Virus record (IMG/VR): IMGVR_UViG_3300046463_000548
Location: 89,707-153,706 of that record
Strand: one strand, 5' to 3'
DNA length: 64,000 nucleotides
Source of the DNA: a virus
Part shown: piece by piece, positions 37,867-42,511 of the stretch
Numbering within the stretch: the stretch's first letter is position 1
How the letters are laid out: each line of letters starts with the position of its first letter
Notes under the pieces: generated by a model
The model's database searches: none
The model's input: only the letters and a program-made list of their open reading frames with translations
Told to the model about the DNA's origin: nothing
Program-made: the position numbers and the translations under genes

Positions 37867-38483
37867 GCTATTTTCTTTCTTCTGAACACTTCATAGTCAA
37901 ATGTGCAGGAGAAAGAGCGAATGCAGAAATCGTAGCTGAATCTGCATCCGCACTTCGGACGTTAATCCCAATCACATAGAGCAAGTCATCAAGGCTAGTT
38001 ACGATAACAAGAAAAGCCGACCCTCTACCGCTGAGGTACTCACCTCCCAAGATCACTTCAGCCGACAAATGATCTAGGGCAGGTGAGACGGGATTCGAAC
38101 CCGCGTCTTTCGACTTGAACCAGTGCTCTCATCCATTGGGTGCACTGGCAACCTTCCGCCTGCTTTAAACTGCGATTGCTTAATACAATGAGATTTGGGT
38201 AATACGATCAATGAAAGTTGCCGCTCGCTGCCGCACGTCTACCAATTCCGTCACCTCTGCACCAAACACGCTGCCATACTCAAAACCGGGTTATCGAGAA
38301 CCGGCTCTGATTAGAGCAGACGACCCAAACTTTTCCCAAGAAAAGATCGCTACCGTGGGAATCCACCTCCCGTCGAGAAAGGTGGCACGACTACATACAG
38401 CAGCGTGTTTGGTGCAGAGGGGTGGAGTCGAACCACCACTGAGCTTCTACTATCAACGATAACGATCAACGCTACCCATTCTC
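37830..38483 (-). ncRNA. Large structured ncRNA with two circularly permuted tRNA-like (YrlA-like) modules
   Basis: Promoter motif 38484-38490; two T-arm/acceptor/D-arm units in permuted order (38190-38483 and 37969-38178); terminator 37830-37866. Confidence 0.75.
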
Positions 38484-38490
38484 TATTTAC
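38484..38490 (-). promoter_or_regulatory. Phage promoter motif GTAAATA (representative of at least 17 copies)
   Basis: Minus: 14947, 25020, 27108, 31130, 37771, 38484, 39520, 42621, 47128, 48830, 51257, 53446; plus: 53902, 54796, 57229, 61351, 63043. Confidence 0.7.
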
Positions 38491-38681
38491 TGCTGACTCT
38501 TGGAATCAAATCTGAACGTGACCTGAATTTCAACAAGCCCAGTCGTCTCGTCAGCTTCCGCGTCCTCCATTGCAGGGGCAATCGGATAACAATCCGTGAA
38601 GGTCATTTGCCTGTCATCTGTCGTTAGCACCGTGAGATTCGGCCCTTCCCACCACAAACGTTTGACGCGGAGTTCGACCAT
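38487..38681 (-). CDS. Small hypothetical protein
   Basis: 64 aa ORF starting 2 nt after upstream stop; its stop overlaps the GTAAATA motif. Confidence 0.55.
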   Translation of the reverse strand: MVELRVKRLWWEGPNLTVLTTDDRQMTFTDCYPIAPAMEDAEADETTGLVEIQVTFRFDSKSQQ

Positions 38682-38683
38682 GA

Positions 38684-39478
38684 TTAAATCTGGTTGCTGG
38701 CTGGCGGATTACGCAGCGGCTCAAGGATCACTGCAATCAGGTCGCGGCCGATGTTCTGCGTCATCACAGGCACCGAGTTCGCGCGGGTCCGAGCCTGCTT
38801 AACAGCCGTGATCAGTTCGTCCAGAGTCGCGATAACCTGCGCCTTCTGGATTGCGGTCGTCGCGCCCGACACGTTTTCCTGCGTGAACGTGCCGATGATC
38901 TTGTCGCTGGTCACTTCCTTGACCTGTGCCGGGTGCTTGTCCGAGTGCGGGTACAGGACCACGGGCACAGTCTGCTTTTCGGTCTTGGTCGTGATCGACG
39001 GATGTGCTGCCTTCCACGTACCGGCTTGTGCCGCGTTGGGGTCGATGCGCCAATCCTTCGATGCGTCGAGCGTCGGGATTTGCATCGCGAGCTTGCGCAG
39101 TTCGCCCAGACGCACTTCGAGACCCATCAACTCATCGACCGGCACATTCTCCGCGAATGTCTGTCCACGGAATTCGATGTTGGCGAGAGCGGTCGTGTTG
39201 GTCAGGTTCTTCGACGCCAGAACGTCTTCGGCCTTCGCCCAGTAGCTCAGGAAGTAGTCCAGAGTCGTGAGCACCGTTGTCGGCAGCGTCTTATCCTGGC
39301 GCGCGGCCTTTTCGAGGTCTTCGTTGTTCGGATCGTCACCGAGCAGCTTCAGGGTCTTCGTGAAGCCCGTGAAGTAGTTGTCACCCTTTTCAAATTTCGT
39401 CAGGGTGTCCTTAGCCATCGCGTCGCGCGAATTTGTTGCCGTCTTTTCAGCGGCCAACAGTTCATGAAGTTGAGCCAT
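38684..39478 (-). CDS. Uncharacterised helical protein upstream of the large ncRNA
   Basis: 264 aa from MAQLHELLAAEK; IPTLD, HPAQVKEV..D..IG, AVKQAR.RAN; own GTAAATA motif at 39520. Confidence 0.8.
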   Translation of the reverse strand: MAQLHELLAAEKTATNSRDAMAKDTLTKFEKGDNYFTGFTKTLKLLGDDPNNEDLEKAARQDKTLPTTVLTTLDYFLSYWAKAEDVLASKNLTNTTALANIEFRGQTFAENVPVDELMGLEVRLGELRKLAMQIPTLDASKDWRIDPNAAQAGTWKAAHPSITTKTEKQTVPVVLYPHSDKHPAQVKEVTSDKIIGTFTQENVSGATTAIQKAQVIATLDELITAVKQARTRANSVPVMTQNIGRDLIAVILEPLRNPPASNQI

Positions 39479-39559
39479 GTGTGTTTGTATGAGCAAGAGT
39501 TATGGGGCCTTACACTTCTTATTTACTGGAGCATCCGCGTTTCCGCACAATTATTTTAG

Positions 39560-40860: not shown

Positions 40861-40992
40861 TGGTCGGAACAGCAGGAATCGAACGCTGCGTCATCCTCTC
40901 CCTACCGGGCTTCAAGACACATGCGGTGTGCATGAGTGCATGCTGAATTGTGGGTCCCGGCGAGGATTACTCTACCTTTGAGCTATGCTCCG
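40861..40992 (-). ncRNA. tRNA-Pro-like RNA with a 63-nt structured insert in place of the anticodon loop
   Basis: CGGAGCA/TGTTCCG-A-CCA acceptor, TAGCTCAAAGGTAGAGT D-arm, ATCCTC/GAGGAT stem, bulged T-arm. Confidence 0.75.
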
Positions 40993-41729: not shown

Positions 41730-41805
41730 TGGCGAGGTGTAGGGGATTCGAACCCCTGACATGCGGATAGACAATCCGCTGCTCTACCAACTGAGCTAAC
41801 ACCCC
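41730..41805 (-). tRNA. tRNA-Asp(GTC)
   Basis: Cloverleaf, GCGGA-TT GTC TA-TCCGC, CCA. Confidence 0.9.
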
Positions 41806-41823
41806 TTTACTGATTGAAACTCG

Positions 41824-41982
41824 AAGGTCGGGCAGGATTCGAACCTGCGGACGGTATGGGAAAGTCGGACCTTCGACACCGATAGCCTGATCAGGAGCAA
41901 CCGCCTACGCGTTGATGCTCTGGTCAGACAGTCCCAACCCGTTCTTGTCTCGGTCACCATTAAGCCACTCTGGCACCGACCC
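41824..41982 (-). ncRNA. tRNA-like RNA with a ~110-nt domain replacing the anticodon/variable arms
   Basis: GGGTCGG/CCGACCT acceptor, CCAGAGTGGCTTAATGG D-arm, GCAGG-TTCGAAT-CCTGC T-arm; no encoded CCA. Confidence 0.7.
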
Positions 41983-42394: not shown

Positions 42395-42511
42395 TGGGCA
42401 TCCCCGGGAGGACTCGAACCTCACAGCGTCCCGTAACTGCTTTCGCAGCGCGAGACACGTCGGACCGAAGTCCGCACATACAGGCTACCAATTACCTGCA
42501 TACAGGGGTAC
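42395..42511 (-). ncRNA. Anticodon-less tRNA-like RNA with tRNA-Sec-like proportions
   Basis: Long acceptor ending CCA, 6-bp D-stem, CGGAC-TTCG-GTCCG in anticodon position, long GAAA-capped variable arm, GAGG-TTCGAGT-CCTC. Confidence 0.7.

What the first reader, a model, noticed from the sequence alone, without database searches (positions are those of the whole stretch)
38190..38483. Module 1: Leu-like permuted tRNA with internal ACCA and a 149-nt domain on the acceptor stem
Seen: a perfect 21-bp inverted repeat (38254-38274 / 38400-38420) extends the acceptor helix through ACCA and pairs the CCA with TGGT. The 149 nt between CCA and G1 fold into several hairpins (CCACCTTTC/GGGAGGTGG, GCTCT/AGAGC). 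The D-arm GGAATTGGTAGAC and A73 are tRNA-Leu-like. Known: bacterial LeuRS relies little on the anticodon, and permuted tmRNA is matured by excising such a segment. Inference: either it is processed to a two-piece chargeable RNA plus a released small RNA, or the CCA is deliberately masked.
Basis: partly seen in the sequence, partly recalled or inferred. Interest (0 to 1): 0.72.

Follow-up and report, generated by a model that had tools for sequence, protein, structure and literature searches.

The report
Leu-type tRNA mimic with expanded cap
The flagged stretch is a real back-to-front, leucine-type tRNA look-alike, but it is one domain of a larger phage RNA that always sits beside one unknown protein gene (DUF7873), and its 149-base "extra domain" is a clade-specific outgrowth at the tip of its closed acceptor arm.

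Summary
Observation confirmed. On the minus strand there is a T-arm (38437-38421), a 3' acceptor strand plus ACCA (38420-38410), 149 nt, then the matching 5' acceptor strand (38260-38254) and a tRNA-Leu-type D-arm. The 21-bp perfect inverted repeat is real.

It is not a free-standing permuted tRNA gene. It is module 1 of a roughly 500-nt non-coding RNA (about 38480-37990) with two tandem tRNA mimics. They have the YrlA/Y-RNA topology: T-arm, loop-closed acceptor stem, D-arm.

This RNA lay beside the DUF7873 gene in every locus with enough flanking DNA:
- 32 IMG/VR loci
- 55 metagenome loci
- Klebsiella phage FBKp24
- Vibrio phage D505
- a Calothrix chromosome

None of the six phage records checked encodes Ro60.

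The acceptor and T stems covary fully. Module 1 is a class II, Leu-type tRNA opened in its variable arm, and A73 occurs in 24 of 26 such modules. Its anticodon arm is degenerate in the window.

The 149 nt is an expansion in the tip loop of the cap hairpin. Three of four phiRSL1-clade genomes have it (141-153 nt); phiRSL1 has 30 nt. One relative carries an HNH endonuclease gene at the same spot in module 2.

Processing and charging remain untested. This scan has found the same RNA family before on other DNA.

The parts
38484..38492 (-). CAGTAAATA promoter-like motif just 5' of the RNA
   Evidence: The motif occurs 26 times in the window (up to 1 mismatch) against 5.2 expected. Copies lie at 38484-38492 and, before the DUF7873 gene, at 39520-39528. 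It is conserved before the RNA in phiRSL1, L008 and L048. Promoter function is inferred.
38470..38478 (-). 5' strand of the helix that closes module 1 (TGGGTAGCG); pairs with 38196-38206
   Evidence: It covaries with relatives: window and L048 TGGG/CCCA, phiRSL1 TAGAGG/CCTCTA, L008 ACAGG/CCTGT (sequences). The helix is predicted in the MFE folds.
38421..38437 (-). Module 1 T-arm (GGTGG TTCGACT CCACC)
   Evidence: T-stem covariation.
38410..38420 (-). Module 1 acceptor 3' strand CCTCTGC, A73 and CCA
   Evidence: All 7 acceptor pairs covary across 14 modules.
38261..38409 (-). Cap of the acceptor arm (149 nt): helix extension (38400-38409 with 38261-38274, continuing with G.U pairs) plus a roughly 110-nt three-hairpin expansion
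   Evidence: Fold. phiRSL1 has 30 nt here. L008 has 147 nt and L048 has 141 nt, with shared ends TGCTGTATGT...GAGT; the window and L048 also share CAGAGCCGG inside. No Rfam match at E <= 10.
38254..38260 (-). Module 1 acceptor 5' strand GCAGAGG
38235..38253 (-). U8 G9 and the Leu-type (class II) D-arm ACG GAATTGGTAGA CGT
   Evidence: The same D-arm type occurs in module 1 of most relatives.
38220..38234 (-). Degenerate hairpin in the anticodon-arm position (GCGGC AGCGA GCGGC; G.G mismatch, 5-nt loop)
   Evidence: Relatives have 5-8-bp hairpins here with UUCG, GCGA, CAAG or 7-nt loops. The un-permuted window sequence is not called a tRNA; that of phiRSL1 is.
38196..38206 (-). 3' strand of the module 1 closing helix (CGTATTACCCA)
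   Evidence: See the 5' strand above. The block CGTATTACC is invariant in A1.
38016..38114 (-). Module 2: GTCGA/TCGGC stem, T-arm 38104-38088, closed acceptor CTCACCT/AGGTGAG with a 35-nt cap, D-arm 38036-38022
   Evidence: YrlA (RF02553) scores 30 bits here, and 32 bits over the full model in phiRSL1; both are below the gathering score of 69. R1 scores 66.9 bits. The 31-39 pair is compensated in phiRSL1.
37995..38015 (-). 3' tail with the conserved TTATCGTAAC block and AACTAG, which pairs with CTGGTT at 38118-38123
   Evidence: Invariant in A1. Present in L008, L012 and L014.
38684..39496 (-). DUF7873 gene, the constant neighbour of the RNA
   Evidence: Pfam PF25283, E = 5.5e-65. The RNA lies next to it in all loci with enough flank.

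Best explanation
The stretch is the first of two tRNA-mimic domains of a roughly 500-nt phage non-coding RNA (about 38480-37990, minus strand). The RNA appears to be transcribed from its own CAGTAAATA-type promoter, immediately after a DUF7873 gene.

Module 1 is a class II, leucine-type tRNA that has been circularly permuted. Its ends lie in what was the variable-arm loop, and that arm continues into a long closing helix. Its acceptor stem is closed by a hairpin instead of ending in free 5' and 3' ends. In the window its anticodon arm has decayed to a short hairpin, so it cannot decode.

What is conserved is the tRNA elbow (T-loop and D-loop), the 7-bp acceptor helix, A73, and a helical cap that continues the acceptor stem. 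The 149 nt is that cap. It consists of a helix extension that pairs the ACCA, plus a three-hairpin outgrowth inserted in the cap's tip loop. The outgrowth is specific to part of the phiRSL1 clade and evolves fast.

Inferred mechanism: the RNA works as a Y-RNA-like scaffold. It presents two tRNA-shaped heads to tRNA-binding proteins and acts together with DUF7873, taking the place that Ro60 holds for YrlA. The cap outgrowth is a peripheral, tolerated appendage, not a catalytic or coding part.

Shown here: the anatomy, the covariation, the linkage to the gene, the distribution of cap lengths, and the absence of Ro60. Inferred: transcription, binding to DUF7873, and function.
For: Homology and structure:
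- The locus is homologous to a phiRSL1 intergenic gap. Both modules are present there, and both acceptor stems and both closing helices show compensatory changes.
- The T-stem and acceptor are 100% paired in 14 modules, and all 7 of the 7 acceptor pairs have changes on both sides. The covariation score is 0.92 against 0.23 in shuffles and at most 0.14 when the pairing is slid.
- The topology equals that of the Rfam YrlA model: 30-32 bits, E = 7.7e-5 in phiRSL1.

Linkage to DUF7873:
- All 32 IMG/VR loci found with the DUF7873 protein carry 1-2 such modules next to the gene.
- 46 of 55 eligible metagenome loci pass a strict pattern scan. The other 9 are found by covariance model R1, some of them upstream of the gene.
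- The RNA is also present in Klebsiella phage FBKp24, Vibrio phage D505 and Calothrix NIES-22.

No Ro60 or RtcB:
- No TROVE/Ro60 in the window's own record, phiRSL1 or four relatives estimated 91-100% complete. No RtcB in the window's own record.

Leu type:
- A73 in 24 of 26 modules with a Leu-type D-arm.
- The un-permuted phiRSL1 module 1 is called a class II tRNA by ARAGORN.

The cap:
- Cap length ranges from 5 to 153 nt in module 1 and from 7 to 498 nt in module 2.
- The outgrowth sits in the tip loop of a 12-13-bp cap hairpin, whose tip reads AUUC-N3-5-GAGU in many relatives.
- The outgrowth is shared by the window, L008 and L048 and absent from phiRSL1.
Against: - There are no transcript, end-mapping, binding or processing data for any member.
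- DUF7873 has no recognisable fold or RNA-binding motif: AF2 pLDDT 86.8, Foldseek and VIA-align found only generic helical matches, and no PDB sequence hit. The partnership therefore rests on adjacency alone.
- NCCA sits exactly after the 7-bp acceptor in about half of the non-Leu modules and in 6 of the 26 counted Leu-type modules, besides the window's own. That is easier to explain if a 3' CCA end is made at some stage, which favours the processing rival.
- The outgrowth has persisted in three diverged genomes with conserved ends, which hints at a function of its own.
Confidence: 0.6

Rival explanations
1. Two- or three-piece maturation. The cap is opened: RNase III could cut the long helix, or RNase E the AU-rich tip. 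RNase P then cuts 5' of G1 (38260), and exonucleases trim back to ACCA. Module 1 becomes a split tRNA-Leu-like molecule held together by base pairing, with a free CCA end that LeuRS could charge. The roughly 125-nt outgrowth is released.
For: - M. smegmatis YrlA has a 7-bp acceptor, is cut by RNase P in vivo and in vitro, and gains CCA; both halves stay in the RNP (PMC4201824).
- All modules here have 7-bp acceptors.
- NCCA at positions 73-76 occurs in 46 of 96 non-Leu and 6 of 26 Leu-type modules, against about 1 in 64 by chance.
- A73 is present in 24 of 26 Leu-type modules. From established knowledge, A73 is a major LeuRS identity element, and bacterial LeuRS ignores the anticodon.
- Caps tolerate 5 to 498 nt, including an HNH gene, as the intervening segment of permuted tmRNA genes does.
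- The Rfam beta_tmRNA model matches the T-arm/acceptor/cap region at positions 86-151.
Against: - In the window, A73 and CCA lie inside a perfect helix of about 34 bp. A paired leader and trailer is a poor RNase P substrate (established knowledge).
- In the four closest genomes the CCA varies (ACCA, AUCA, GCCA, ACGA) while the pairing is kept by compensation, so the closed helix is what is selected.
- Most Leu-type modules have tiny 5-7-nt caps without CCA.
- There are no processing data.
Confidence: 0.25
2. The 149-nt segment is a decaying remnant of a mobile insertion, for example a homing-endonuclease cassette that once sat in the cap tip. It is neutral baggage with no function of its own.
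For: - L008 (and L046, L047) carry an intact HNH endonuclease ORF in the tip of the module 2 cap, between the same kind of flanks: TGTAT... and ...AGTATA.
- The interiors of the three module 1 outgrowths share almost no sequence.
- phiRSL1 does without it.
Against: - tblastn of the HNH protein against the three outgrowths gives nothing significant (best E = 0.04 over 18 residues).
- No ORF remnant is visible.
- The outgrowths are strongly structured in the window (z = -7.6).
- The window and L048 keep a 9-nt block at the same position.
- No other copy exists in the genome.
Confidence: 0.3
3. It is a true circularly permuted tRNA-Leu gene, as in Cyanidioschyzon, or a two-piece tmRNA, which after processing takes part in translation.
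For: The order of the halves is permuted. ACCA, A73 and the Leu-type D-arm are present. The beta_tmRNA model gives partial hits.
Against: - There is no anticodon loop in the window: a 5-nt loop on a stem with a mismatch. ARAGORN finds no tRNA in the un-permuted sequence and reports no tmRNA.
- There is no G3.U70 pair; position 3-70 is A-U.
- No tag reading frame was noticed when reading the sequence; this was not searched for systematically.
- Relatives cap the anticodon-position hairpin with UUCG or GNRA tetraloops.
- No bulge-helix-bulge splicing system is known in bacteria (established knowledge).
Confidence: 0.03
4. It is non-functional debris of tandem tRNA genes in the tRNA island.
For: It lies at the edge of a tRNA cluster. 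Junctions between adjacent tRNA genes give weak matches to model R1.
Against: The acceptor stems covary fully, and the architecture and its linkage to DUF7873 are kept across very distant phages and a cyanobacterium.
Confidence: 0.02

Closest known systems
YrlA (Y RNA-like A, Rfam RF02553), the Ro60/Rsr-bound tRNA mimic of bacteria and mycobacteriophages (Chen et al. 2014, PMC4201824)
   Same: Same connectivity: T-arm, loop-closed acceptor-like stem, D-arm, all closed by a helix made from the flanks. The M. smegmatis form has a 7-bp acceptor and is cut by RNase P and given CCA. Several Y RNAs can lie in tandem.
   Different: - No Ro60/TROVE gene in the six phage records checked.
- The Rsr-binding motif GNCGAAN0-1G is present in the window's module 2 (GTCGAAAG) but not conserved in relatives.
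- Scores are 30-32 bits against a gathering score of 69.
- Two heads sit in one RNA.
- Module 1 is a full class II tRNA shape opened in the variable arm, not in the anticodon stem.
- The constant neighbour is DUF7873.
- Caps are long (12-13 bp, up to 153 nt).
Two-piece tmRNA from circularly permuted ssrA genes (Rfam alpha_tmRNA, beta_tmRNA, cyano_tmRNA)
   Same: The gene order is T-arm, acceptor 3' strand, CCA, an intervening segment of variable length, then the acceptor 5' strand. The intervening segment is excised in tmRNA.
   Different: No G3.U70 alanine identity, no tag ORF noticed (not searched for systematically), no pseudoknot series. ARAGORN reports no tmRNA. The Rfam hits cover only model positions 86-151 at 20-25 bits (gathering score 84).
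Circularly permuted tRNA genes of Cyanidioschyzon merolae and other algae and archaea
   Same: The 3' half is encoded upstream of the 5' half, and the acceptor strands are joined by a linker.
   Different: Those mature into ordinary decoding tRNAs through a circular intermediate made by the bulge-helix-bulge splicing machinery. Here there is no usable anticodon loop, and the ends run on into a larger RNA.
The DUF7873-associated double tRNA-mimic RNA noted earlier by this scan on other DNA (e.g. e1-2703945, e1-3443960)
   Same: Same gene-RNA cassette, same two-module plan, same absence of Ro60.
   Different: This copy has a 153-nt cap on module 1, where most relatives have 5-33 nt, and an ACCA buried in a perfect 21-bp repeat.

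Membership tests
YrlA (RF02553) | Score at or above Rfam's gathering score (69 bits) | tested here: not met
   Module 2 scores 30.1 bits in the window and 32 bits in phiRSL1. Module 1 gives no YrlA match.
YrlA (RF02553) | tRNA-like domain in the order T-arm, closed acceptor-like stem, D-arm, closed by a flank helix | tested here: met
   (full-length alignment to the model).
YrlA (RF02553) | Encoded next to, and bound by, a Ro60/Rsr (TROVE) protein | tested here: not met
   No PF05731 match in the window's own record (63% complete), in phiRSL1, or in four relatives estimated 91-100% complete. Binding cannot be tested here.
YrlA (RF02553) | Conserved 5'-strand motif GNCGAAN0-1G of the Rsr-binding helix (PMC4201824) | tested here: inconclusive
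   The window's module 2 has GTCGAAAG at 38114-38107. phiRSL1, L008, L009, L010 and L011 have other sequences at that place.
Canonical tRNA-Leu | Contiguous cloverleaf with a 7-nt anticodon loop carrying a Leu anticodon | tested here: not met
   The order is permuted. The hairpin in the anticodon position has a 5-nt loop and a G.G mismatch. There is no Rfam tRNA match. ARAGORN finds nothing in the un-permuted sequence.
Canonical tRNA-Leu | A73 and a class II D-arm (3-bp stem, GAAUUGGUAGA-type loop) | tested here: met
   A73 in 24 of 26 Leu-type modules of relatives.
Permuted tRNA genes (Cyanidioschyzon type) | Matures to a decoding tRNA through a bulge-helix-bulge junction and a circular intermediate | tested here: not met
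   There is no anticodon loop, and the flanks form a long ordinary helix. Circularisation itself cannot be tested here.
Two-piece tmRNA | G3.U70, a tag reading frame, and detection by ARAGORN or the Rfam tmRNA models | tested here: not met
   Position 3-70 is A-U. ARAGORN reports no tmRNA. beta_tmRNA scores 24 bits against a gathering score of 84 and matches only partly.
DUF7873-associated double tRNA-mimic RNA (scan-defined, not published as far as I could find) | One or two permuted tRNA-like modules directly beside a DUF7873 gene | tested here: met
   DUF7873 at E = 5.5e-65. The modules begin about 250 nt downstream. The same arrangement is seen in all loci with enough flank.
DUF7873-associated double tRNA-mimic RNA (scan-defined) | The RNA and the DUF7873 protein form a particle | not testable with these tools
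   Only adjacency is shown. The protein fold is uninformative.

The most novel reading that the evidence does not exclude
Module 1 is matured by host tRNA enzymes (RNase III or E, RNase P, exonucleases) into a split, anticodon-less tRNA-Leu mimic. Its freed ACCA end is leucylated and used, together with DUF7873, for something other than decoding. The excised, fast-evolving 125-nt cap domain is released as a separate small RNA.
Probability: 0.12. Interest if true: 0.85.

Novelty: new variant of a known kind. Interest (0 to 1): 0.66.

Why it matters
Y-RNA-like tRNA mimics are so far known only as partners of Ro60. This RNA has the same topology, but in every locus examined it sits next to a different, uncharacterised protein. 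The cassette occurs in cultured phages of Ralstonia, Klebsiella and Vibrio and in a cyanobacterial chromosome; a protein search also found the gene in phages of Gordonia, Rhizobium and cyanobacteria, whose flanks were not examined. That points to a second, Ro60-independent way of using tRNA mimicry during infection.

This copy adds three things:
- The first head is specifically leucine-type (A73 and a class II core).
- The acceptor cap is an evolutionary hot spot that takes up 140-150-nt structured outgrowths and even a homing-endonuclease gene.
- In the closest genomes the helix that buries the CCA is kept through compensatory changes while the CCA itself varies.

Cultured relatives (phiRSL1, FBKp24) make the question testable.

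Tried and rejected
- **Rfam.** Gathering-threshold and E <= 10 scans gave nothing on the 149 nt, and only sub-threshold YrlA and beta_tmRNA hits on the module cores.
- **Exact-pattern scans of IMG/VR.** Two conserved module 2 blocks found only phiRSL1. GCAGCGTGTTTGRTGYAG also hit L006, which is a chance match inside a coding region. The pattern CTGCTGTATGTA-N88-117-GAGTATGG found only L008's contig and L043, a match inside an HNH gene. About 3 chance matches are expected, so I treat L043 as chance.
- **blastn of the region against phage records.** Only phiRSL1 matched, and not over the outgrowth.
- **DUF7873 function.** I tried Pfam, PHROGs and NCBIfam, a PDB profile search, an AF2 model with Foldseek against PDB and BFVD and with VIA-align wide, and the ESM Atlas. 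No informative relative was found; the best Z of 9.1 covers only a helical hairpin.
- **Genome-contig scan with the DUF7873 alignment.** It used a single peptide pattern and returned one locus (Calothrix), so it says little about the bacterial range.
- **Model R1 hit at window 41779-41848 (40.6 bits).** This is a junction between two adjacent tRNA-type genes whose acceptor strands do not pair. It is not a third module.
- **MAFFT/RNAalifold on the three outgrowths.** L048 was misaligned, so there is no usable consensus for the interior.
- **Burroughs and Aravind 2016 (PMC5062991).** An earlier check named it as the nearest idea in print. The library does not hold it, so I could not verify what it says.
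- **Wang et al. 2026 preprint on bacterial tRNA mimics.** It concerns other families: skipping-rope, DUF2693-FD and salivarius-1.

Full report
**What is in the sequence**

All features lie on the minus strand.
- The perfect 21-bp inverted repeat 38254-38274 / 38400-38420 is real.
- Reading 5' to 3', the parts are:
  - a T-arm GGTGG-TTCGACT-CCACC (38437-38421)
  - the acceptor 3' strand CCTCTGC (38420-38414)
  - A73 and CCA (38413-38410)
  - 149 nt (38409-38261)
  - the complementary acceptor 5' strand GCAGAGG (38260-38254)
  - U8 G9
  - a D-arm ACG-GAATTGGTAGA-CGT (38251-38235) of the tRNA-Leu class II type
- The helix continues through ACCA and beyond for about 34 bp and ends in three hairpins. 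The fold is far more stable than shuffles (-98.7 kcal/mol, z = -7.6).
- ARAGORN's 'tRNA-Asp(atc)' at 38410-38493 is an artefact built on the 3' half. The Rfam tRNA model does not match it.

**It is one domain of a larger RNA**

- The window belongs to a 153.7-kb IMG/VR phage record related to the Ralstonia jumbo phage phiRSL1.
- The stretch 38500-37990 is homologous to an unannotated 484-bp gap between ORF269 and ORF270 of phiRSL1.
- Both genomes carry two modules with the same plan.
- Module 2 comprises a T-arm (38104-38088), a closed acceptor CTCACCT/AGGTGAG, and a D-arm (38036-38022). It aligns to the whole Rfam YrlA model in phiRSL1: 32 bits, E = 7.7e-5, gathering score 69. In the window it scores 30 bits.
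- The YrlA consensus has exactly this connectivity: T-arm, loop-closed acceptor-like stem, D-arm, closed by a helix made from the flanks. So the 'permuted tRNA' topology is the Y-RNA-like one.
- Between the two phages, both acceptor stems, the module 2 anticodon-position stem (GTCGA/TCGGC against CCTGA/TCGGG) and the module 1 closing helix (TGGG/CCCA against TAGAGG/CCTCTA) change by compensation. L008 has ACAGG/CCTGT at that closing helix.
- MFE folds of the whole RNA recover two cloverleaf-like junctions.
- A CAGTAAATA motif is five-fold enriched in the window (26 matches against 5.2 expected). It lies just 5' of the RNA and also before the upstream gene, so the RNA probably has its own promoter.

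**The constant partner gene**

- The gene immediately upstream (38684-39496) is DUF7873 (PF25283, E = 5.5e-65).
- Using it as bait gave 32 IMG/VR loci and 80 metagenome loci.
- A strict pattern scan looked for a T-arm, 7 paired acceptor positions and a D-arm. It finds one or two modules beside the gene in all 32 IMG/VR loci and in 46 of the 55 metagenome loci with at least 450 nt of flank.
- Covariance model R1 was built from 14 modules. It finds modules in the other nine loci, in four of them upstream of the gene.
- The cassette is also present in three further records:
  - Klebsiella phage FBKp24. There, the annotated 'tRNA-Sup-TTA' ends exactly at the ACCA of module 2 and is probably the same kind of miscall.
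  - Vibrio phage D505.
  - The chromosome of Calothrix brevissima NIES-22.
- On alignment A4 the T-stem and acceptor are paired in 100% of cells. All seven acceptor pairs show changes on both sides. The covariation score is 0.92 against 0.23 for shuffles and at most 0.14 for slid partners.
- No TROVE/Ro60 is encoded in the window's record, phiRSL1 or four relatives estimated 91-100% complete. No RtcB is found in the window's record.
- DUF7873 is mostly viral, absent from 14 control genomes, and has no informative fold match.

**What module 1 is**

- In most two-module loci the first module has the D-arm UG-GCGGAAyUGGyAGACGC. A73 is present in 24 of 26 such modules, and the window's own module adds another.
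- After the D-arm comes a 5-8-bp hairpin in the anticodon-arm position. Then comes a helix whose partner strand lies just 5' of the T-arm, in the place of a class II variable arm.
- I joined the two halves of the phiRSL1 module through that helix in silico. ARAGORN then calls a 91-nt class II tRNA with a 7-nt loop.
- The same operation on the window gives nothing. The hairpin there is GCGGC-AGCGA-GCGGC, with a G.G mismatch and a 5-nt loop.
- Relatives cap this hairpin with UUCG, GCGA or CAAG.
- Module 1 is therefore a Leu-type tRNA shape opened in the variable arm, closed at the acceptor end, and not able to decode.

**What the 149 nt is**

- Cap length, from N73 to the 5' acceptor strand, is the most variable feature of the family. 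It runs from 5 to 153 nt in module 1 and from 7 to 498 nt in module 2.
- In a large subgroup the cap is 27-33 nt and forms a 12-13-bp hairpin stacked on the acceptor. Its tip often reads AUUC-N3-5-GAGU.
- The window's cap keeps this helix, extended to a perfect 21-bp repeat, and carries about 110 extra nucleotides in the tip loop.
- The same is true for L008 (147 nt) and L048 (141 nt). These, with phiRSL1, are the closest relatives by DUF7873 identity (56%, 59% and 67%).
- The three outgrowths share their ends (TGCTGTATGT... and ...GAGT). The window and L048 also share CAGAGCCGG at the same position. Otherwise their sequences do not match.
- phiRSL1 has only 30 nt here.
- There is no Rfam match, no other copy in the genome, and no similarity to phage records.
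- In L008, L046 and L047 the module 2 cap tip holds an intact HNH endonuclease gene. No trace of that protein is detectable in the module 1 outgrowths.
- I read the 149 nt as helix extension plus a clade-specific, fast-evolving expansion segment at a site that tolerates insertions.

**Closed or cut?**

- Chen et al. (PMC4201824) showed that M. smegmatis YrlA, the one with a 7-bp acceptor, is cut by RNase P in vivo and in vitro and receives CCA, and that both halves stay with Rsr. All modules here have 7-bp acceptors.
- NCCA follows the acceptor in 46 of 96 non-Leu modules and 6 of 26 Leu-type modules. That is far above chance and argues that a CCA end matters in the family.
- Against cleavage in this copy: A73 and CCA are buried in a perfect helix of about 34 bp.
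- In the four closest genomes the sequence at positions 73-76 varies (ACCA, AUCA, GCCA, ACGA), while pairing with the 5' side is kept, partly by compensation.
- I therefore put the closed scaffold first (0.6) and two-piece maturation second (0.25). RNase III opening the long helix would be the step that reconciles the two.

**Comparison and novelty**

- The closest known family is YrlA. The topology matches, but three features do not hold: the Rfam threshold and the Ro60 neighbour are not met, and the Rsr-binding motif is not conserved in relatives.
- It is not a decoding permuted tRNA and not a two-piece tmRNA.
- I found no paper describing the DUF7873-RNA pair. The 2026 preprint on bacterial tRNA mimics treats other families. 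Burroughs and Aravind 2016 could not be read.
- This scan has already reported the same family on other DNA in at least 112 genomes, with the same reading.
- New here are the Leu-type statistics, the cap expansion shared by three phiRSL1-clade genomes, the homing-endonuclease gene in a cap, and the compensated helix over a variable CCA.

Noticed in passing
L008:4386-4859 (also L046, L047): An intact HNH homing-endonuclease ORF (PHROG HNH families, E = 6e-32) sits inside the tip of the module 2 acceptor cap, on the same strand as the RNA. The two acceptor strands are 498 nt apart.
   Followed up: partly
window 38484-38492, 39520-39528 and 24 other sites: The motif (C/T)AGTAAATA occurs 26 times (up to 1 mismatch) against 5.2 expected. 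Two of the sites lie just before the DUF7873 gene and just before the RNA. It is a candidate phage promoter element shared with phiRSL1, L008 and L048.
   Followed up: partly
window 38410-38493 (-); L039:2518-2597 (Klebsiella phage FBKp24): tRNA finders miscall the 3' half of a permuted module plus upstream sequence as a tRNA. In the window it is ARAGORN 'tRNA-Asp(atc)'. In the FBKp24 record the annotated 'tRNA-Sup-TTA' ends exactly at the module's ACCA.
   Followed up: yes
window 38450-38470, 38203-38212, 37998-38007; the same places in relatives: Short (T)ATCGT(T/A) repeats recur in the 5' leader, in the middle after module 1 and in the 3' tail of the RNA in many relatives. They lie partly inside the long closing helices. 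Their role is unknown.
   Followed up: no
L055:1263-1341, L079:904-1010, L081:444-550, L096:1312-1442: In some metagenomic lineages a module lies upstream of the DUF7873 gene rather than downstream, so the RNA is not simply a 3' UTR.
   Followed up: no
   Followed up: no
window 40861-40992, 41821-41982, 42395-42511 (-): First-reader notes list further odd tRNA-like elements in the same tRNA island. I looked only at 41779-41848, which is an ordinary junction between two tRNA-type genes and not a third permuted module.
   Followed up: partly
window 38487-38681 (-): A 64-aa ORF with no family match lies between the DUF7873 gene and the RNA. phiRSL1 has a hairpin there instead. Its stop codon lies inside the CAGTAAATA motif.
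   Followed up: partly
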